A DNA stretch of 64,000 nt from Lama glama (GCA_028534125.1 CM052816.1:17176001-17240000), one strand, 5' to 3'; positions 1-56,064 are shown, numbered from the stretch's first letter. The notes: generated by a model from the sequence alone, not told the origin. Numbers and translations are program-made.

Positions 1-88
1 TAATTAGTCACCAGGTCAGATAGAACTAGAGAATATTCTTCTTGGCTCAGAGGTGAATTTGAGCAGGGCGATCCTGAGGAATAATTAC

Positions 89-208
89 CTGGGGAAACAG
101 AGAGTCTTGCTGTGGAGACTGCAGTCCCAGCCTCATTTTCTGCAATACACTTAAATTCCCCAGAGTCTTCAGGAAATGCTTCTGTGATAATCAAGGTACA
201 GACTTCCT
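89..208 (-). CDS. MYOT: Internal coding exon (120 nt, phase 1-1), C-terminal half of an Ig I-set domain: EEVCTLIITEAFPEDSGEFKCIAENEAGTAVSTARLSVSP; putative upstream myotilin exon
   Basis: Acceptor tcccctttccag|AG at 209/208 and donor CCAG|gtaatt at 89/88. The frame is open and carries the D-x-G-x-F-x-C Ig motif. It closely resembles palladin Ig2 ([38 protein letters not shown], recalled). The MYOT assignment rests on synteny with NPY6R. Too short for the ORF track. Confidence 0.85.
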
Positions 209-1020
209 CTGGAAAGGGGAGAGATTCAACTTGACCAGAGTACTTGAATGCCCCATATTAACAAACAAACAGTGTGGGAGGATGTCAGGGAGAGTAGGCA
301 CTAGGAATAAATAGGGTATTCCTGAGATTTAAAAAAAAAAATCCATCTGATTAGATTTTTGTCATTGAGTGGGCTCATGAAGATAAATCTTAAAAATACA
401 ACCTAAAACAATCCCAGCATGGTGCCTATCACCTGCTTCTTAGGCACATCTGTCTTCTCTACTTGGCTATGAGTTTCTTGAAAGCAGGGATTATACTTTA
501 TTCCTCGGCTTGCATATTTCTGTAAGCTTGAGGGGTTAGCACAAAGGACCATAGAAAGATTTTTCTGAACTGACCTAAAAATTATCATTGCCATGGTAAT
601 TAGACCTAATGTTAGTACAATGATGGCCACTGTGTGATGGGCAGAACACCTACATTCAGTGTGGATGTTTGATGTCAGGACACTTCCTTACTGCCTCTGT
701 GTATAGCTCACAAGGCACCAATAATACACCAAGTGGAATTAGAGGAAGAACGCATGCCCTGAGGGCAGAGGCTTCTCAGGGCCAAGAATGGAATGTGGCC
801 GTACCCTGTCTATAGTAAATACATGTTGAATGAATGAATGAATGAACAAATACACTGATAAATTCCAATTATCTTGCTGCTTCTGTTGTGTCAGTTAAAG
901 AGTTGGCATAAGGTAGCCTCAAAACTCCTCCTGAAGGCAAAAGTAATGTAGGAGACAAAGTCTTCTAATGCTATATTTGATTTAATTATTATTATCAAGA
1001 TGCTGAAAAATTGTGCTTAC

Positions 1021-1044
1021 CAGGAATGGGTGATAAACAAGCTT
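1021..1044 (-). CDS. MYOT: 24-nt coding micro-exon (phase 1-1), (K)ACLSPIP(E), inside the Ig domain
   Basis: Long polypyrimidine acceptor ctctattctcttcttttatctttcag| and consensus donor CTG|gtaagc. It preserves the frame and sits where palladin has the short KPRSTAEP insert. Confidence 0.8.
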
Positions 1045-2324
1045 CTGAAAGATAAAAGAAGAGAATAGAGAGAGAATTTAAATGATGACAATTTAGTTGG
1101 GAGAAGCGACCATGTATATATGAGAAATAACTTGAAGCAAATACAATGTTGACTGTAATTTTGAGTCAGATGATAAATTCTGTAGAAACTCAGAAAAGGT
1201 GCATAATAGAATGAACGCTTGGCAGGGTGCTAGAAAAACTGTGTTTCAGTTCTGTTCTACCATTAAATTGCTCTGTGATTTTGTAAAAATTACTTCTCTG
1301 GGCCTTAGTTCTTCATGTCTAACACGAAGGTAAGACTATATAACATCTCTTCTCTGAGTGAGAACTGTTGCTGAAACACTAATCCTAAGGAGGTCTCTTT
1401 CTCCTGAGAAAATCCTTCTCTTTTAATCTAATTAAAATTGAATATTACATTATAAAAATACTATAGAATTGCTGTAAAAAAATACACAAAAGGTTAATAG
1501 TCTTCTCTGGGTGGTGAGAATATTAGTAATTTTATATTTATTCTTTTTTATAATATATTTTTCTAGATTTATTATAATAAATTTATATTCCTTTAGTTTC
1601 AGAAAATACAAGTAATGTAATTTTGAAAGCAAATTCATATTGTGTAATAGATATTTCTTCCTAAATGTGATGATGTGGAAATGTTCAGTTGTTTTGAATT
1701 AATATTTAAGTGGATATATTTTCTTTGCTTGGTGTAAGAACTATCTTGGTCTTGAACCTAGGCTGCAGTGTTTATTAGCTTTGTGACCTTTGGCAAGGTG
1801 AAATTTCTAATTTCAGTTTGCTTGCTTATAAAATGGAATTGATAACACATACCTCAAAATATTGATGTGAGGATGAAAAATTGTTTATATTTAAACTCAG
1901 TGTTTAGCATGAGGTAGGTCATCATACTTGTTACCCTTTTCCAAATTAATTATTTGGTAGGAAGCTGATACAACAAAGTATTTAGAAAGTTATGCATCAG
2001 TTTCATTTGTTTTACTCTTTGAAAAATATGCTTATTCTCACATTTTTCTTGTTTGTATGCCAAGAACTCATTAGGAAGATAATTAAGATTAATCTATGAA
2101 AATAATCTGGTCTTTTTACAGCTATTAAAACTATTCATCAAAACAAAACAGCTTTTTTTCTTTTTTGGTTGTTTATGTTGAGGAATCATTTAGATTTGAA
2201 ATAACAATTGTTTCACAGTAGAAATTTCTGAACCTGTAACAAATCAGCTATTAAACATTAAAACATGAATTAGATTTCGGGGTTATTCAGAGTGAAAAGT
2301 AAATTGAAAAGCTTATCACTGTAC

Positions 2325-2466
2325 TTTTCCTCAGAATTCGGAAGTCGTCTGAGTCTGCTATCTGCTCCTTCTCTCTATACCAGTGAACTTGAACTGTGGC
2401 TGTGGCCTGGACTCGACATTCAAACACGACAAACTGCCCTCTGGTTGTAGAGATGTCTTGAAGGTG
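2325..2466 (-). CDS. MYOT: Internal coding exon (142 nt, phase 0-1), N-terminal half of the Ig I-set domain: HLQDISTTRGQFVVFECRVQATATVQVHWYREKEQIADSDDFRILRK
   Basis: Lies within ORF 2287..2490(-). Acceptor gtttgttcttcag| at 2467/2466, donor AAA|gtacag at 2325/2324. Has the Ig B-strand Cys and C-strand Trp and resembles palladin ELQNTAVAEGQVVVLECRVRGAPPLQVQWFRQGSEIQDSPDFRILQK (recalled). Confidence 0.85.
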
Positions 2467-4068
2467 CTGAAGAACAAACACAGAATTCACAGAATGGAAG
2501 AAACTGTTTCACCATATACAGCGGTTTGGGATGCCAGTTGCAGGTAAGTGTGCATGCATTTTCATAGTAAGTACTGATAACCGACTATACTTTAAAACAA
2601 GGAGCTTGCTGAGCATCTTTTGTGCTTTATAGTGTACATAAGTATATAACTTTACAGTTAGGTATAAGTTATTTTCATCTTAATTTCATGGAGTTATTTA
2701 GTGAGAAAGTTGTTATTTCCCCAGGAGCCATTTTTCACAATAGAAAACAGATTAGTTGGAAAGTCTTCACTTTGTTGTATTATTTTATTGAATACCTCAT
2801 AGTCACAGATTTAATCTTTATTGTTGGTCAAGTAGCATGGGCAGTATTGTAATTTAAGAATTCCGAATCATGACTTAGAGGACTTGGGCCAAAATCTCAG
2901 CTCTGACATTAGCTGGTTAAAACCTGTCATAGGAACTTGGAAGACTCTTATACTTTGTGGAACTCAAGTTCTTTGTCTGTGCAATAGGGCTAGCAAAATG
3001 TTCAGTGTACTTGAGGGTTTGAAGGTCATGTCAGAGAAGTAATCTGGAGACTTTCTTTTAAAAATGAAGAGTTATATCGATATATAAAAAGTATTTATTA
3101 ACAATAGCTAGTGTAGTCTCATAATGCATACATGAATGGGTGGCATTTGTGGTAAATTTACCCCTTAAATCCTATTCTCCCTCCTCTCCTATTCCCAGCT
3201 CCAGGGTCCTCTAGAATGTAGAGTTAAATTTCAGATTGTAACTTGGTCCTCAGACCAGAGAGGGTCTGAGGTCCTTCTGTCAGATGAGACCTAGTTAGGA
3301 CTTAATGACCACCAGCCCAGCCTTTGAGCCTGATGCCCAGTCAGGGCTGCATATCATGGGAAAAGGAATGCAGCAAGAGAGGAGACATGGAGATAATAGA
3401 CGCATGTGCTTCATAGCATCTGCTGAAAGTGAGCTTCCAGAATTGATAGTCTTAATCTTAATGACATTGTTTCCTGTGCCTCCCATCCTGTATCTGGTAT
3501 AGTTTAAGACCCTGCCCTGCTTTTCATACCTTGGACTAGCAATGAGCAATAGTTTTGGTTCTGCAAGTTTTGGAAACTGGAGGACAGAGAGCCCAGAGAA
3601 GATAACAGCCTTGGCTTGCTTTAACCAGCTGATTGAATCCTGCTATTTCCAGTGGGAAAGAGAGAAGGCTTTTCAATCCTGCTCTCTGACTGTGACCCAA
3701 GCAGGAAATAGACATGGCTTTGCTCATAGACTTCTTCAGAAGAGCATCTTACACCAGTTAAGAGAATCTGATGAATCTTGAGGTCAGGCAGAGCATAGTC
3801 TGCTTGGAAAGGATAGTCTAAGCACTGCCTTCCAGAGCTGGAGGATTGACACAAAGCAGAAGTCTAAAGAGCATAGAAAAAACCATGAGTTGCTCTGTAA
3901 AGTTGAACAATAATTTTACCCTTCTTGGGACTTGGTTTTCTCATATATAAAATAATTATAATCTCTGAGGTCCTTTTTAGTGTCCTCTTTCCTTCTTCCT
4001 ACCTCTTTGATAATGCCTAAAATTTAACTATAAAATCTAAACCCCATCATGCAATGTGGCTAGGTTAC

Positions 4069-4131
4069 CTTGGTAAATACAGGGGCTACAATGCAAGTGG
4101 ATCCTGACAGGCTGCTGCAGGGACTCTGCAT
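4069..4131 (-). CDS. MYOT: Internal coding exon (63 nt, phase 0-0): MQSPCSSLSGSTCIVAPVFTK, supplying the Ig A strand
   Basis: Acceptor ctcttctatttcttaaaccag| and donor AAG|gtaacc. Ends in APVFTK, the start of Ig2 in myopalladin (APVFTK) and palladin (PPVFTK) as recalled. Confidence 0.85.
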
Positions 4132-4808
4132 CTGGTTTAAGAAATAGAAGAGACACTATCATCCGTATTGTCAAGGCCCTGAAACCTAGGTGCATGGTGG
4201 CTGTGGACTAACTGGATCAGTTTTAGCTGCTACCACCTACACCCTAAATTTCCTTTATGAAAAGCATGATGCTCCTAATTTAAATGTCAGCTTGGATGTC
4301 TGTTCCAGTGCCACCCTTTTTCCCCTCTCCTCTAGCATTCCATCAGCTGAGCTGGTCAAATTGCACCATCTGGCTGATTACATTTGGGAAATGAATATTG
4401 GCAGTTATTTAGAGACTATGTATTAAAGGTTTAAATAACTTCTAAATTTTACTGACTAGATTTGTTCCCTCCTCCATACAGTTGTTCTTGTATCTTTAGG
4501 TTTTTGAAAAAGCATTTCCCTTTTTTTTAATTAATAAAGAATTCATTCCTTGGATAGTTGGAATTTCTATTATGAGACTGAGCTCCTAGAAACCAACTGT
4601 CCCTTATGGTCTGTCACACAGACAAATGGCCAACCCACAGAACTACCATGGAGTTATTTCTGAGACCTATGGATTTCTTTCTTCTTCTTTCTGAGGTCAT
4701 ACTGCTGGACCATGTTTACTTTTCAAGAAAGTTAACATTGATTCCTTCCTCTCTAGACCTGTGTCTTCATTACAAGAACCCCTCAGAAGGCTTTAAAACT
4801 GTACCTAC

Positions 4809-4926
4809 CCTCTGGGGGTCAATACACAGCGGCTGAACTAATGTAGAATAACTTGATCTGATATTGGAGGTTTCGTTAACAGGGGAATTGATGGTCAGAG
4901 ATACTTTAGTGGTTTTTTTCTTTATC
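4809..4926 (-). CDS. MYOT: Internal coding exon (118 nt, phase 2-0): IKKKTTKVSLTINSPVNETSNIRSSYSTLVQPLCIDPQR, palladin-like inter-Ig linker
   Basis: Lies within ORF 4770..4952(-). Acceptor ttttttttccccacag|, donor AGG|gtaggt. KKTTxVSLTI and VQPL match the palladin linker QKKTTSVSLTIG...VIQPL (recalled). In phase with the next exon. Confidence 0.8.
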
Positions 4927-5352
4927 CTGTGGGGAAAAAAAACCAAATACAATCCAGTTAAAGAGAGATTAGCAATAGCTTTGGTAGAAATGCCTCACTG
5001 TATACATTTGAATAAATGACATTTTTACCTTTAATCCTTATTTTCTTTTGATTTGCATAATAATTTTAGTTTTTGGCCAGTTATTAGTGGATTATGGCTT
5101 CTAATAGTTTTGCTTTAAATTTCCCTTGTCTTAGTCTCATAATCAGTGGGCTATTACTAAACACTTAAATTGTGCAGAAGAAATAACTTATAAAGCAAAT
5201 AATCACTTCAAAGTTTGGGAAATTGACTGGTGTATTTTTTTTTAATTCTCCCTATATTCATATGCAACAAACGCACATTCACATTTTGTACTTACTCTGA
5301 CATTTCTGTTACATATTGCAAGCATAATCCCAGAGAGAAAACGTTTTCTTAC

Positions 5353-5368
5353 TTCCCTGTGTACCTAC
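5353..5368 (-). CDS. Candidate 16-nt micro-exon (phase 1-2), xRYTGK, or a recursive splice site
   Basis: Strong acceptor tttatttttctttcttgcag| at 5369/5368 and donor GAA|gtaaga at 5353/5352. It stays in frame with the 4926 exon, but I recognise no homology. Confidence 0.4.
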
Positions 5369-5703
5369 CTGCAAGAAAGAAAAATAAATTCTATCTTAAT
5401 CTCACTGGAATTTAATGAAATTTAGTTCAAGTATATTGCATTCACGCTAGAACCAGCAAATTAATCACAAATAGCAGGTCAATCCAGAACACCTGAATTC
5501 TTGAGTAAGGATGGAACTGCTTTAATATTCTCAGTGTAAAAATTCCAGATGTTTACCTTTACAGAGCTATAGCACTTGCACCCAGAAGAGGTGCTGAGTC
5601 ACTTTCCAAAAGTATCATTTTAGAGGGCATAAATTAGTGTCTGTGAATTTGTGTTTTGATCTGAAGTCTTCAGCATATTTGTTACAATGAGAAATCCATT
5701 GAA

Positions 5704-17386: not shown

Positions 17387-18459
17387 GCTTTTGCACAGCA
17401 AAGGAAACCATAAGCAAAACAAAACAACAGCCTATGGAATGGGAGAAAATTTTTGCAAATGATGAAACTGACAAAGGCTTGATCTCCAGAATATATAAGC
17501 AGCTCACATGACTTAATAAGAAAAAACAAACAACCCAATCCAAAAATGGGCAGAAGACCTAAACAAGCAATTCTCCAAGGAATAAATACAAATGATCAAT
17601 AGGCACATGAAATATGCTCAGTATCACTAATTATCAGAGAAATGCAAATCAAAACTATAATGAGGTATCACCTCACATCAGTCAGAATGGCCATCATTCA
17701 AAAGTCCACAAATGACAAATACCAGAGAGGCTGTGGAGAAAAGGGAACCCTCCTACACTGCTAGTGGGAATGCAGTTTGGTGCAGCCACTCTGGAAAATA
17801 GTATGGAGATTCCTCAAAAGACTAGGAATAGACTTACCATATGACCCAATAATCCCACTCCTGTACATACATCCAGAAGGAACCCTACTTCAAAAAGACA
17901 CCTGCACCCCGCTATTCATAGCAGCACTATTTACAATAGCCAAGACATGGAAACAGCCTAAATGTCCATCAACAGATGACTGGATAAAGAAGGTGTGGTA
18001 TATTTATACAATGGAATACTATTCAGCCATAAAAATGACAACATAATGCCATTTGCAGCAACATGGATGTCCCTGGAGAATGTCATTCTAAATGAAGTAA
18101 GTCAGAAAGAGAAATAAAAATACCATGTGAGATCTCTCATATGTGGAATTTAAAAAAAAAAAGGAAAGAAAAAGACAAATGAACATAAATACAAAACGGA
18201 AACAGATTCATAGACATAGAACACAAACTTGTGGGGAAGGGGGTGGGAAGGGACAGACTGGGAGTTCGAAATTTGTAGATACTGACAGGTATATATAGAA
18301 TAGATAAACAAGATTATACTGTATAGCACAGGGAAATGTATATAAGACCTTGTGGTAGCTCACGGTGAAAAAGTACATGACAATGAATATATGTATGTTC
18401 TACACTGGAAATTGACACAACATTGTAAACTGACCATAACTCAATAAAATAAAAATTAA
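17387..18459 (+). mobile_element. 5'-truncated, relatively young camelid-type L1
   Basis: ORF 17777..18046 is the L1 ORF2 C-terminus ([19 protein letters not shown]...MEYYSAIK), followed by 3'UTR and A-rich tail. TSD attaaaaata(a/t)atg at 17373-17386 and 18460-18473. Confidence 0.9.
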
Positions 18460-48232: not shown

Positions 48233-49343
48233 TTATATACGTGTTGATGTATGAGCTAATCTTAATGATCCCTTGGATTCATCTGTGTGCATGCTGGAGA
48301 TGGCAATATTTTCATATCTTTCCTGAGGTGTAAAGCACCAACAGTAGTGAATAAACAACACCAGGTCCTTCTGAAAATTTTTGTTGAGAAAGCCTTAGAA
48401 GAGAGGGTTTATACATGCAGAAAACATAGCAACCAAGTGGCAAACTACAAATACCAGGCTGAGGTGACAGCGCATCAGGACCTCATGATACCAGTCAGAG
48501 ATGACACTGAAGACATTCAAGGGCAGCCAGCAAGCCACAAAGGTGACCACACTGAAGAGCATCATTTTGGTCCTCTTGTTCTCCCTGAGCCGGCTCTCAC
48601 TTTCCCTCTTCTTGTCTACTTTCTGTTTCTCCTGCGGAGGCAGATAGCAATCTTCAGGTAGCAGATGAGGATGAAGCTCAGAGGGACAAATACTGGAGCA
48701 TAAACAGGGAGGTGGTAAAGAGGGGCTGGTTCATTCTGGAGGGCTAGTTCTCTGCACAGGCCACCCAGTTGGTGTAGGGGTGCGTGGGAAGAGAGAGGTT
48801 TCAGAAGGGCTCATTGGTGAGGTGGTAGGACAGGAAGAAGGGACTAGACAACAGAAGGGAAAATAGCCAAATTAGTGTAATACTGCAGTAGGCGTAAGCT
48901 ACACTGGGTTTCCAGCCCTGGGGGTTCACAGTCAGCTGATATCTTTCAACAGCAATCAACACAAGTGAGAATATGACACAAGAGATGGAGACGCTCTGTA
49001 CATAGGAAGTGAGTCTGCACATTGATATCCCCAAACATTCAGTGGTCCATCACAGTGTAAATGACAGTATTGGAATACACATGACACACACTAAGATGTC
49101 AGAGAGGGAGAGACTGGCGATCAGTATGTTGGTGACATTCTGAGCTTCTCTCTGCTTCTTATAGGTGATAATGATGAGGGAGAGGTTTCTAAAAAAGCCT
49201 ATAATTAAGACCACAGTATAGGCTATGAATGTTAGAAGCAAGACTAGGGTAGGGGCTTGACAGGACTCGAAGTAGAAAAATGCAAAGTTGTTGCTCTTTG
49301 CACTGGTTTTATTAGATGCTGGATGGTTTAGAAAAAGCTCCAT
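48233..49343 (-). pseudogene. NPY6R: Neuropeptide Y receptor Y6 pseudogene (single coding exon, full length, disabled)
   Basis: Translates across frameshifts as MELFLNHPASNKTS...FFYFESCQ...IAVERYQL.VNP.GWKP...ACWLPLNVF...CINPLF*GFLNKNFQKDL...MHTDESKGSLRLAHTSTRI*. Stops at 49039-41 (W), 48801-03 (R), 48744-46 (W) and 48395-97 (Y of NPxxY). Frameshifts at ~49069 (-1), ~49022 (+1), ~48688 (-1) and ~48620 (-1), plus a 3-nt deletion near 48560. Length 1111 nt equals a 371-aa ORF plus stop (1116 nt) minus 5. Confidence 0.95.
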
Positions 49344-49516
49344 TATGTCAAGGTTGTAAGGAGAGTTTTTCTAGACTAAGTCATGTTATGGGTAGGTATT
49401 TTGGCCATCAGTTCTTGGAAAGAACTTTGAGTCTTCCAATGAGTAATTAGTATTTAGTCTTTCTCTTTGTCTGCTTGATGGAAGTGCATGAATGACTTGA
49501 GTATGCTCTTGAGATC

Positions 49517-55470: not shown

Positions 55471-56064
55471 TGTTACGGAAATGACAGGCCAGCCAAGAAA
55501 CAAGCACCACTCGGAGGGTTGGAGTACTCAGATTTATTACGCCGGTGGGCTCAGAGGGGCTTCTGCTCCGAAGCTCTGAGCACCTCCAAGACGTGCACAT
55601 GAGGTTTTAGGGTTAATTACAAGTATGGGCTACNNNNNNNNNNNNNNNNNNNNNNNNNNNNNNNNNNNNNNNNNNNNNNNNNNNNNNNNNNNNNNNNNNN
55701 NNNNNNNNNNNNNNNNNNNNNNNNNNNNNNNNNACAACAAAAAGCAAGGAATCAGTACACTGAAGCTTATCAATTCGGAACAGATCACGTTACTGACACT
55801 TGTTGAGCTTGGATTTACGAGTTAGCTTGTTAGCCCAGTAAACTGACACTAAACTTTAGATTTACAAGTTAGCCCGGCAGAACTTATATCAGTAAACCGA
55901 CACTTATCACACTTAGATTTGTGACTGAGCTCTTTAGCCCAAAAGACTGACACTAAACTTCAGATTTATGAGTTAGCCCAGCAGAACTCAGATCAGTAAT
56001 CCGACACTTGTTACATTTAGATTTGTGAGTTATCTTGTTAGCCCAGCTGGGCTTTTTCTTCACA
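55471..56064 (-). mobile_element. Nested solo ERV1-like LTR with internal tandem repeats; spans the assembly gap
   Basis: TG...CA termini and a 4-bp TSD agac (55467-55470, 56065-56068). Repeated gacact...agattt..gagttagccc units at ~55790-56045. Confidence 0.75.
55634..55733. other. Assembly gap (100 N)
   Basis: Run of N read directly. Confidence 1.

What the first reader, a model, noticed from the sequence alone, without database searches (positions are those of the whole stretch)
89..4926. Intact five-exon module encoding a palladin-type Ig domain upstream of myotilin: a candidate long, three-Ig myotilin isoform
Seen in sequence: five minus-strand exons (118, 63, 142, 24, 120 nt) with GT-AG sites and matching phases (2-0, 0-0, 0-1, 1-1, 1-1). 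They splice into 467 nt with no stop or frameshift: IKKKTTKVSLTINSPVNETSNIRSSYSTLVQPLCIDPQR|MQSPCSSLSGSTCIVAPVFTK|HLQDISTTRGQFVVFECRVQATATVQVHWYREKEQIADSDDFRILRK|KACLSPIP|EEVCTLIITEAFPEDSGEFKCIAENEAGTAVSTARLSVSP. This contains a full Ig I-set domain (PxF, Cys, Trp, DxGxFxC). Established knowledge: palladin and myopalladin have two N-terminal plus three C-terminal Ig domains, while canonical myotilin has only two C-terminal ones. MYOT lies downstream of NPY6R on the same strand, and NPY1R/PALLD, NPY4R/MYPN and NPY6R/MYOT sit on paralogous chromosomes. Inference: these are the retained MYOT ohnologs of the PALLD/MYPN Ig2 exons. Their intact frame, beside a neighbouring gene with 8 disablements, suggests purifying selection on a longer myotilin isoform outside the textbook model. 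Automated gene models in some species may already predict it.
Basis: partly seen in the sequence, partly recalled or inferred. Interest (0 to 1): 0.9.

Follow-up and report, generated by a model that had tools for sequence, protein, structure and literature searches.

The report
Conserved upstream Ig module of myotilin
These exons are a real, conserved piece of the myotilin gene that encodes an extra palladin-type Ig domain; gene-prediction pipelines already annotate it in many vertebrates, but the papers I could search do not describe it.

Summary
Five minus-strand exons (118, 63, 142, 24, 120 nt) have AG/GT sites and splice into one open 467-nt frame that encodes an I-set Ig domain.

An ATG exon lies upstream (ATG at window 5303). 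A sixth exon lies 98 nt past the window start.

MYOT lies directly downstream on the same strand. Exon 6 can splice in frame into MYOT exon 2, giving an open frame through 67 codons to the canonical Met. Left unspliced, it stops at once and gives a ~240-aa one-Ig protein.

The module is the third ohnolog of the PALLD/MYPN Ig2 region:
- it has the same 142/24/120-nt exon layout, 24-nt microexon included;
- it forms its own clade from shark to camel (100/99).

Pipelines already predict it, as long "myotilin isoform X" (~760-815 aa) or as separate "palladin-like" (~240 aa). Nine literature searches found no paper on it.

Macaque models look degraded. No human or mouse hit was seen among the listed rows.

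Verdict: real, conserved, database-known, moderately interesting.

The parts
5296..5303 (-). Coding end of the start exon: ATG TCA GA, then donor GTAAGT. It supplies Met-Ser and two bases of the Glu codon that exon 1 completes. An AG acceptor-like site at about 5369 suggests an internal exon of roughly 73 nt with further 5' UTR exon(s) upstream; this is inferred, not shown.
   Evidence: Pattern search; context sequence. Orthologous models start MSE/MSD/MSQ and shark MPQ.
4809..4926 (-). Module exon 1 (118 nt, phase 2 to 0). It encodes the linker before the Ig domain, colinear with the PALLD stretch just before Ig2.
   Evidence: Splice sites and frame. tblastn of 5 orthologous models. BLASTP to fox PALLD 384-540.
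4069..4131 (-). Module exon 2 (63 nt, phase 0 to 0). It encodes a linker ending ...PVFTK. Its Met is the start used by the ~765-aa ruminant and rodent models.
   Evidence: The camel PALLD exon ends at the same ...FTK position.
2325..2466 (-). Module exon 3 (142 nt, phase 0 to 1): first half of the I-set domain, holding the B-strand Cys and C-strand Trp.
   Evidence: Pfam I-set profile 7-50, E 3.2e-7. The paralogous exon is also 142 nt in camel PALLD and MYPN.
1021..1044 (-). Module exon 4: a 24-nt microexon (phase 1 to 1) inside the Ig domain.
   Evidence: 24-nt microexons at the same place and phase in camel PALLD and MYPN. Skipped in the Monodon, Panthera and Ambystoma models.
89..208 (-). 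Module exon 5 (120 nt, phase 1 to 1): second half of the I-set domain, with the DSGEFKC motif. Its donor at 88 leads over a 98-nt intron to exon 6 outside the window.
   Evidence: Pfam I-set profile 56-90, E 3.7e-8. Paralogous exons are 120 nt (PALLD) and 117 nt (MYPN). Exon 6.

Best explanation
The exons are the conserved 5' coding module of the MYOT locus. They are the myotilin counterpart (ohnolog) of the stretch of palladin and myopalladin that runs from just before Ig2 through Ig2.

How I think it works (inferred): transcription starts from a promoter upstream of the ATG exon at window 5303. Exons 0 to 6 encode a short disordered leader, one I-set Ig domain and a disordered tail. After exon 6 the transcript has two fates.

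(a) It ends in the following intron. The donor G|GTAAGG then reads as TGG TAA, which gives a ~240-residue one-Ig protein.

(b) It is spliced on to MYOT exon 2, or to exon 3 with exon 2 skipped. This gives a three-Ig myotilin of roughly 805-810 residues, or ~620 residues. In that protein the textbook start Met is an internal residue (308 in the camel frame).

I think both are made, and that the three-Ig form is the ancestral one. The logic is the same as at PALLD: alternative promoters plus early termination. The long form would correspond to the 140-kDa palladin isoform, and the textbook two-Ig myotilin to the 90-kDa isoform.

Shown: anatomy, open frames, homology, conserved exon structure, phylogeny, synteny. 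Inferred: promoter use, which 3' fate dominates, tissue, and function of the extra Ig.
For: Anatomy:
- Six exons in the window have canonical sites and one open frame.
- Exon 6 and the acceptor at C1:17168928 keep the frame open for 67 codons to the canonical Met. Only 771 of 20000 shuffles of those 202 nt stay open in that frame.
- The 806-aa Heterocephalus 'myotilin isoform X2' maps colinearly, exon by exon, on C1:17156239-17180925.

Homology:
- Cervus P0011 aligns to fox PALLD residues 384-540 (linker plus Ig2) at 44.7% identity, E 3.75e-41. Its matches to PALLD residues 271-362, 1232-1323 and 996-1090, which I read as Ig1, Ig5 and Ig3, are 32%, 35% and 27%.

Exon structure:
- Exon sizes are 142/24/120 nt in the module, 142/24/120 in camel PALLD and 142/24/117 in camel MYPN, with the same phases.

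Phylogeny, 51 segments:
- MYPN clade 100/98, PALLD 92/86.
- The module clade holds 30 rows from shark to camel at 100/99, with roughly species-tree order.

Architecture elsewhere:
- Models named myotilin carry the module at their N-terminus in axolotl (786/794 aa), lungfish (826), a teleost (934), sharks (~620) and many reptiles (610-800).
- The FNYERP motif sits at residues 303-329 in Sceloporus, Albula (a 347-aa model), lungfish, axolotl and the teleost, and at 363 in gar, against 310 in camel.
- A Met precedes the motif in the lizard, lungfish, axolotl and mammals. Ala precedes it in the three ray-finned fishes (gar, Albula, teleost), where it cannot be a start.

Constraint:
- Camel against 8 long mammalian models: Ig 81-95% identical and leader 82-87%. 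That is like the canonical exon-2 part at 80-93%.
- Ig identity to camel is 79% in opossum, 74-76% in birds and 58% in shark.

RNA, weak evidence:
- Four RNA-seq runs of one study, labelled reproductive system, hold 0.72-0.76 of the sampled words of exon 5 + intron + exon 6.
- Spliced mRNA should give 0.68 (sd 0.07) and unspliced DNA about 1.0.

PALLD isoform logic is taken from passages of PMC10069870.
Against: - So neither exon 6 to exon 2 splicing nor termination after exon 6 is shown for this animal.
- The RNA runs that hold the exons are labelled reproductive system, not muscle. They come from one study, and I could not see which words they hold.
- RefSeq-type pipelines annotate the module as a separate 'palladin-like' gene next to a canonical 497-499-aa myotilin in many mammals. 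These include horse, dog, pig, cetaceans, hippo, squirrels, buffalo, oryx and macaques. That fits a split gene as well as it fits alternative 3' ends.
- All orthologues used are predicted proteins. Species whose bridge region is closed would never yield a long model, so the in-frame indels seen in the bridge are biased evidence.
- Exon 6 and the bridge are much less conserved (44-89%).
- Macaque models depart at 9-10 of 28 Ig columns that are invariant from shark to camel, and lion at 3.
- No human, ape or murid protein was among the 31 hits, the 120 listed of 461 or the 120 listed of 197.
- The AlphaFold model is poor: mean pLDDT 49, with the Ig part at 58-84.
Confidence: 0.55

Rival explanations
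1. Split gene. In camelids and most mammals the module has become an independent gene (the 'palladin-like' LOC genes, perhaps rat Palldl1). It makes only the ~240-residue one-Ig protein. Transcripts end after exon 6, and the open bridge into MYOT exon 2 is an unused relic of the ancestral three-Ig gene.
For: - Unspliced, the exon 6 donor gives an immediate stop: TGG TAA.
- Models of ~240 aa that end at that Trp exist in Cervus, Pseudorca, Chinchilla, Ictidomys, Castor and Monodelphis. Clusters add horse, hippo, whales, pig, dogs, marmots, buffalo and oryx, beside canonical 497-499-aa myotilin in the same taxa.
- Equus, Manis and Canis models add a different short 3' end.
- AATAAA signals lie 633 and 1156 nt after exon 6.
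- The RNA holders are labelled reproductive system, while myotilin is known as a muscle protein (PMC10069870 passages).
- A rat gene symbol Palldl1, 'palladin-like 1', appears in a muscle RNA-seq table (PMC6610545, passages). I did not verify that it is orthologous to this module.
- The bridge is the least conserved part, at 44-89%.
Against: - The camel bridge is open for 67 codons (3.9% of shuffles).
- Long models exist in at least 5 mammalian orders. They include 3 ruminant RefSeq models of 764-766 aa and pig and horse 'Myotilin' entries of 619-621 aa that join exon 6 to exon 3.
- In every non-mammal examined, the module is the N-terminus of the protein called myotilin.
Confidence: 0.35
2. 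Decaying relic. The module no longer has a function in this lineage and is intact only by chance, on its way to the state seen in macaques.
For: Macaque models lack the start exon and the microexon, and they change 9-10 of 28 invariant Ig columns, including the Gly of the DxGxFxC motif. Their end branch is 0.43 against a median of 0.095. Panthera models also look disturbed.
Against: - All six window exons keep their splice sites and frame.
- The camel Ig segment (residues 57-160) is 96% identical to Cervus and 95% to Pseudorca, with an end branch of 0.012.
- The exons are present in RNA-seq contigs.
- The neighbouring receptor gene shows what decay looks like here: it survives only as ORF fragments.
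Confidence: 0.05
3. Recent duplicate. The exons are a lineage-specific copy of PALLD or MYPN Ig2 exons that landed upstream of MYOT.
For: Source names such as 'Palladin', 'Myopalladin' and 'palladin-like' are given to the same peptide. Identity to the PALLD and MYPN Ig2 segments is 48-57%.
Against: - In the tree the module clade excludes all 11 PALLD and all 8 MYPN rows (100/99). It contains shark, ray-finned fish, lungfish, amphibian, reptile and bird sequences.
- The camel's own PALLD and MYPN Ig2 exons lie on other contigs and are only 52-54% identical.
Confidence: 0.01

Closest known systems
Palladin 140-kDa isoform (four Ig domains, by my reading Ig2-Ig5, from an internal promoter) and the truncated N-terminal PALLD transcripts
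   Same: - The module aligns from its first residues to the PALLD stretch that starts just before Ig2 (fox residues 384-540).
- A Latimeria 'palladin isoform X2' of 1012 aa starts 8 residues before that point.
- The Ig2 exon layout is identical: 142, 24, 120 nt.
[quoted passage not shown] The two fates proposed here follow the same logic.
   Different: - The long myotilin would have three Ig domains, not four. Nothing here shows a counterpart of PALLD Ig3.
- No Ig1 remnant lies in the window.
- The central region is myotilin's serine-rich exon 2, not palladin's proline-rich regions.
- PALLD isoforms are shown experimentally. This one exists only as gene models.
Textbook myotilin (two Ig domains, about 57 kDa)
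   Same: It is the same locus and strand. The long frame contains the whole canonical protein from its Met (residue 308 of the camel frame) onward.
   Different: - The long frame adds 307 residues upstream, including a third Ig domain.
- Passages of PMC5479843, PMC8002584 and PMC10380269 all describe myotilin as having two Ig domains. None mentions an upstream module.
Myopalladin N-terminal region (Ig1-Ig2), the CARP/Ankrd1-binding part
   Same: MYPN Ig2 is the other ohnolog, at 51-57% identity to the camel Ig with the same three-exon layout. The N-terminal region (start to Ig2) of PALLD, and the corresponding region of MYPN, bind CARP (PMC10069870 passages). This gives a testable guess for the module's partner.
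   Different: The module has no Ig1. The CARP site was not narrowed to Ig2 in the passages I read. No binding was tested or predicted here.
Automated gene models: 'myotilin isoform X1/X2...' (about 600-815 aa) and 'palladin-like' (about 230-260 aa)
   Same: They use the same exons. The Camelus dromedarius entries 'Palladin' (289 aa) and 'Myopalladin' (88 and 175 aa) are 100% identical to window exon 3.
   Different: - These are predictions, and they disagree on whether this is one gene or two.
- The 289-aa dromedary entry carries an extra stretch taken from window 3526-3642 and 2467-2505 that no other species' model has. It is probably an artefact.
- The window differs from the dromedary entries by a few residues.

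Membership tests
I-set immunoglobulin domain (Pfam PF07679) | Profile match above the curated cut-off over the whole domain | tested here: met
   Window halves score 30.8 and 33.7 bits against a cut-off of 23.7, covering profile 7-50 and 56-90. The Cervus orthologue, 96% identical in the Ig, covers profile 1-90 of 90 at 66.5 bits, E 2.2e-18.
I-set immunoglobulin domain (Pfam PF07679) | Core residues: B-strand Cys, C-strand Trp, and DxGxY/FxC with the F-strand Cys | tested here: met
   FECRV, HWYR and DSGEFKC are present in the window peptide. These columns are invariant in the 11 'palladin-like' models of alignment A1. The list of defining residues is recalled, not taken from a call.
I-set immunoglobulin domain (Pfam PF07679) | Predicted beta-sandwich fold | tested here: inconclusive
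   AlphaFold2 on the 11-row alignment gave seven strands in residues 76-155, but mean pLDDT was 49 and the Ig part only 58-84. No fold search was run on it.
Palladin/myopalladin/myotilin family, Ig2-region ohnolog | Closest to Ig2 of PALLD/MYPN rather than to other Ig domains, with colinear flanking linker | tested here: met
   Ig2 region 44.7% identity, E 3.75e-41, from residue 1 of the module. The matches I read as Ig1, Ig5 and Ig3 are 32%, 35% and 27%.
Palladin/myopalladin/myotilin family, Ig2-region ohnolog | Shared intron positions and phases | tested here: met
   142/24/120 nt (module), 142/24/120 (camel PALLD) and 142/24/117 (camel MYPN), all with AG/GT sites. The preceding exon ends at ...FTK in both the module and PALLD.
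Palladin/myopalladin/myotilin family, Ig2-region ohnolog | A separate, ancient clade rather than a nested recent copy | tested here: met
   Three clades: MYPN 100/98, PALLD 92/86, module 100/99 with 30 rows from shark to camel. The root is unsure because the two cyclostome rows do not form one side of a branch.
Palladin/myopalladin/myotilin family, Ig2-region ohnolog | Paralogon synteny: an NPY Y1-type receptor gene next to each family member | tested here: inconclusive
   An NPY1R-like 7tm remnant lies about 43 kb upstream of the module. The camel PALLD contig is only 23 kb, so the paralogous neighbourhoods could not be checked. The human map positions are recalled.
Long (three-Ig) myotilin isoform | Module upstream of MYOT, on the same strand, with a splice-compatible in-frame path | tested here: met
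   Exon 6 ends in phase 2, exon 2 starts and ends in phase 2, and exon 3 starts in phase 2. The exon 6 to exon 2 path was read open in the camel DNA. The exon 6 to exon 3 path is inferred from the pig and horse models.
Long (three-Ig) myotilin isoform | Transcripts that join module exons to MYOT exons | not testable with these tools
The share of words held by RNA runs covers exons 5-6 only.
Long (three-Ig) myotilin isoform | Protein product detected | not testable with these tools
   No proteomics tool was available. Nine paper searches found no report.

The most novel reading that the evidence does not exclude
Myotilin is ancestrally a three-Ig protein, and in most vertebrates it still is. 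Its first domain is the lost-from-the-textbook counterpart of palladin and myopalladin Ig2.

On this reading the two-Ig 57-kDa protein studied in human and mouse is a derived, internally initiated form. That form became possible when a Met appeared before the FNYERP motif in lobe-finned vertebrates.

Most mammals keep the upstream module under selection, and use it at least partly outside skeletal muscle. It serves either as a stand-alone one-Ig 'palladin-like' protein or as long myotilin. Old World monkeys, and perhaps humans, have let it decay. That decay would explain why muscle biology has not noticed it.
Probability: 0.45. Interest if true: 0.55.

Novelty: new member of a known kind. Interest (0 to 1): 0.4.

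Why it matters
If the module is used, the palladin family is more uniform than described. All three genes would share an Ig2-type domain and an upstream-promoter isoform.

Myotilin's serine-rich 'N-terminus' holds the disease-mutation cluster, according to passages of PMC5479843. In many animals it would be an internal linker rather than an N-terminus.

This would affect how myotilin models in fish, chicken, pig or horse are read. It points to possible partners of the extra Ig, such as CARP/Ankrd1-type proteins, by analogy with PALLD and MYPN. It also affects whether a MYOT 'knock-out' or antibody in a given species covers all products.

For annotation, the 'palladin-like' LOC genes next to MYOT and the long 'myotilin isoform X' models are one evolutionary unit and should be reconciled.

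The medical weight is limited if the module is indeed degraded in catarrhine primates. I could not check that in human.

Tried and rejected
No junctions, starts or ends could be seen.
- Earlier findings. The search of earlier findings by place found no notes for this genome. By words, nothing held 'myotilin' or 'palladin'.
- Ig1 counterpart. tblastn of the fox PALLD and coelacanth MYPN N-terminal parts against the window hit only the module's own Ig weakly, E 1e-4 to 6e-4. I found no Ig1 remnant.
- Structure. AlphaFold2 on the shallow 11-row alignment gave mean pLDDT 49. I did not run a fold search on it, and I left the second job unused.
- Short contig proteins. P0025 and P0029, from contigs of about 930 nt, read from intron into exon 3, so they are unspliced DNA-like contigs and not transcript evidence.
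- The PDB holds no closer relative than titin, contactin and Robo Ig domains for the two exon pieces. Palladin entries 2dm2 and 2lqr match exon 3 only at E 0.02.
- dN/dS could not be computed, because no nucleotide sequences of other vertebrates are reachable with these tools.
- The chicken myotilin paper PMC4135462 is not held.
- The supplements of PMC5479843, which list the myotilin sequences used in its evolutionary analysis, were not opened. They could show whether those authors met long forms.

Full report
**1. Observation**

Reading window 1-5400 on the minus strand and cutting it by script gives exactly the five exons claimed: 4926-4809, 4131-4069, 2466-2325, 1044-1021 and 208-89, of 118, 63, 142, 24 and 120 nt. 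Each follows a pyrimidine tract plus AG and precedes GT.

Pfam I-set matches the exon 3 piece (profile 7-50 of 90, 30.8 bits) and the exon 5 piece (profile 56-90, 33.7 bits). Both exceed the 23.7-bit cut-off. The exon 1 and 2 pieces match nothing. The Cervus orthologue covers the whole profile at E 2.2e-18.

**2.

(a) An upstream start exon. A single site in window 4927-50000 fits ATG-Ser-GA|GTR. It is ATGTCAGA|GTAAGT, with the ATG at 5303. It supplies the Met-Ser-Glu start found in orthologous models.

(b) A sixth exon. The window is G000:C1:17176001-17240000. After a 98-nt intron, a 244-nt exon lies at C1:17175747-17175990.

(c) MYOT itself. A search of the own genome with the 806-aa Heterocephalus 'myotilin isoform X2' finds all canonical MYOT exons at C1:17156239-17168930 on the same strand. 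tblastn places the whole protein colinearly.

**3. Two possible 3' fates**

Exon 6 ends ...CAATG|GTAAGG. Unspliced, the frame reads Trp then TAA. This is the end of the ~240-aa 'palladin-like' models.

Spliced to the acceptor TTTTGAAG|GAACAAT at C1:17168928, the Trp codon is completed and the frame runs on for 67 codons into the canonical Met, residue 308. The other two frames of these 202 nt hold 3 and 4 stops. Of 20000 mononucleotide shuffles, 771 keep the frame open.

Pig and horse 'Myotilin' entries of 619-621 aa instead join exon 6 to exon 3 and skip exon 2. The phases allow this.

**4. What the databases already hold**

With exon 3 alone, 31 of 34 candidates pass E 0.001:
- 13 are long (621-935 aa), mostly named myotilin. 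They come from naked and Damaraland mole-rats, guinea pig, degu, marmot, tenrec, armadillo, desman, pig, reindeer and a sheep hybrid.
- 18 are short (88-314 aa), named palladin-like, myopalladin-like, Palladin or Myopalladin. Three are Camelus dromedarius entries, 100% identical to exon 3.

A profile of 11 short models (A1) then finds further models. I list them by search:
- Longer proteins: 461 hits, 120 listed.
- Similar-length proteins: 197 hits, 120 listed.

These include three-Ig 'myotilin' models in many squamates and a gharial, and ~230-aa fragments in dozens of birds.

The exhaustive representative search and the name look-ups add axolotl (786/794 aa), lungfish (826), a teleost (934), gar (988) and sharks (~620).

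Cluster look-ups show that one taxon can carry 'palladin-like' (~240 aa), canonical myotilin (497-499 aa) and long myotilin (764-766 aa) side by side. Bovids and marmots are examples.

**5. Paralogy**

The Cervus model aligns from its first residue to fox PALLD 384-540 at 44.7% identity, E 3.75e-41. That covers the linker before Ig2 plus Ig2. The other three matches (PALLD residues 271-362, 1232-1323 and 996-1090), which I read as Ig1, Ig5 and Ig3, score 27-35%.

In the camel genome I located the PALLD Ig2 exons (contig C582367, 94% identical to fox PALLD) and the MYPN Ig2 exons (C105730). Both show the same three-exon layout with a 24-nt microexon. Sizes are 142/24/120 and 142/24/117 nt, against 142/24/120 in the module, with the same phases.

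A maximum-likelihood tree of 51 Ig2-type segments gives three clades:
- MYPN, 8 rows, 100/98.
- PALLD, 11 rows, 92/86.
- A module clade, 30 rows, 100/99. It runs from basking shark through gar, sturgeon, teleosts, lungfish, axolotl, reptiles, birds and opossum to placentals, in roughly species order.

The two cyclostome rows do not form a clean outgroup, so the root is unsure. The three-way split does not depend on the root. The 'recent duplicate' reading is therefore rejected.

**6. Ancestral architecture**

The FNYERP motif at the start of textbook myotilin lies at residues 303-329 in Sceloporus, Albula (a 347-aa model), lungfish, axolotl and the teleost, and at 363 in gar. In the camel frame it is at 310.

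A Met precedes the motif in Sceloporus, lungfish, axolotl and mammals. Ala precedes it in the three ray-finned fishes, gar, Albula and the teleost. In those fishes the motif can only be internal.

My inference is that the three-Ig form is ancestral and the two-Ig form is a later, internally started product.

**7. Constraint**

Camel against 8 long mammalian models:

| Segment | Identity |
|---|---|
| Leader | 82-87% |
| Ig | 81-95% |
| Exon 6 | 47-77% |
| Bridge | 44-89% |
| Canonical exon-2 part | 80-93% |

Ig identity to camel is 79% in opossum, 74-76% in three birds, 68-73% in five reptiles and 58% in shark. All of these are predicted proteins, so the bridge evidence in particular is biased toward open frames. 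No dN/dS could be computed.

Exceptions: macaque models lack the start exon and the microexon. They differ at 9-10 of 28 Ig columns that are invariant in 16 species from shark to camel, including the Gly of DxGxFxC, and they have a long end branch of 0.43 against a median of 0.095. Lion differs at 3 columns.

No human, ape or murid protein appeared in the listed rows. Unlisted rows were not seen.

**8. Expression**

For the stretch exon 5 + 98-nt intron + exon 6, four RNA-seq runs of one study hold 0.72-0.76 of 50 sampled words. The study is labelled reproductive system. Two other RNA runs hold about 0.4.

A spliced mRNA would hold 0.68 (sd 0.07), exon 6 alone 0.48, and genomic DNA about 1.0. 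The figures fit spliced exons 5-6.

One paper lists a rat gene Palldl1, 'palladin-like 1', among genes changed in gastrocnemius muscle (PMC6610545, passages). I could not verify that it is this module.

**9. Literature**

Nine full-text searches found no paper that describes a third Ig domain, a long isoform or upstream coding exons of myotilin. Passages of PMC5479843, PMC8002584 and PMC10380269 describe two Ig domains.

PMC10069870 (passages) states three relevant things:
[quoted passage not shown] - The N-terminal region (start to Ig2) of PALLD, and the corresponding region of MYPN, bind CARP/Ankrd1.

Subscription journals are mostly not held in the library, so absence here is not proof.

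**10. Verdict**

These are the retained myotilin ohnologs of the PALLD/MYPN Ig2 exons, intact and conserved. They have a legitimate in-frame route into MYOT and also a legitimate early stop.

The finding is not new to sequence databases, where it sits under inconsistent names. It appears unstudied in the literature I could search. Which product is made, where, and what the extra Ig does remain inferred.

Noticed in passing
window 48395-48730 and 49050-49370, minus strand: Two separate ORF pieces of a rhodopsin-type receptor (7tm_1, E 1.2e-13 and 6.5e-6). The closest solved relative is NPY1R (E 8.7e-21), then NPY4R. This fits a broken NPY6R-type gene about 43 kb upstream of the module. I did not count the number of disablements.
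   Followed up: partly
L001 = G000:C1:40537786-41850 (match at C1:40539286-40540350, plus strand): An intronless copy of the MYOT coding region (residues 438-806 of P0003, 54% identity) with 17 in-frame stops; an adjoining weaker match (C1:40539063-40539485) reaches back to residue 363. It is a 5'-truncated processed pseudogene 23 Mb away on the same contig. It does not reach the module, so it says nothing about the long isoform.
   Followed up: no
window 3526-3642 and 2467-2505, minus strand: The GenBank Camelus dromedarius entry named 'Palladin' (P0008, 289 aa) inserts about 49 residues translated from these intronic stretches between exons 2 and 3. No other species' model has this, so it looks like an ab initio prediction artefact. 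The 88- and 175-aa 'Myopalladin' entries read from exon 3 into the intron.
   Followed up: partly
proteins P0141, P0140, P0451 (macaques) and P0142 (lion, tiger): Macaque 'palladin-like' or 'uncharacterized' models use another N-terminus, lack the microexon and the next residues, and carry DSE in place of DSG. The big-cat models translate exon 2 in another frame. Both suggest lineage-specific decay or mis-modelling of the module.
   Followed up: partly
G000:C105730, 158693-162496 (minus) and 622194-625997 (plus): The camel MYPN Ig2 exons appear twice in one contig in mirror orientation with identical scores. This is probably an assembly palindrome or duplication artefact.
   Followed up: no
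window 55633-55733: A run of N in the window (an assembly gap). The script reports 100 N.
   Followed up: no
window 17765-18046, plus strand: A 93-aa open frame whose peptide looks to me like the C-terminal part of a LINE-1 ORF2 protein. The resemblance is recalled, not tested.
   Followed up: no
alignment of long models, bridge region (camel residues about 280-288): The armadillo and kangaroo-rat long models lack the same 8 residues of the bridge. The camel DNA there contains acceptor-like CAG sites. This may mark an alternative acceptor, possibly the canonical exon-2 acceptor. It remains unresolved.
   Followed up: no
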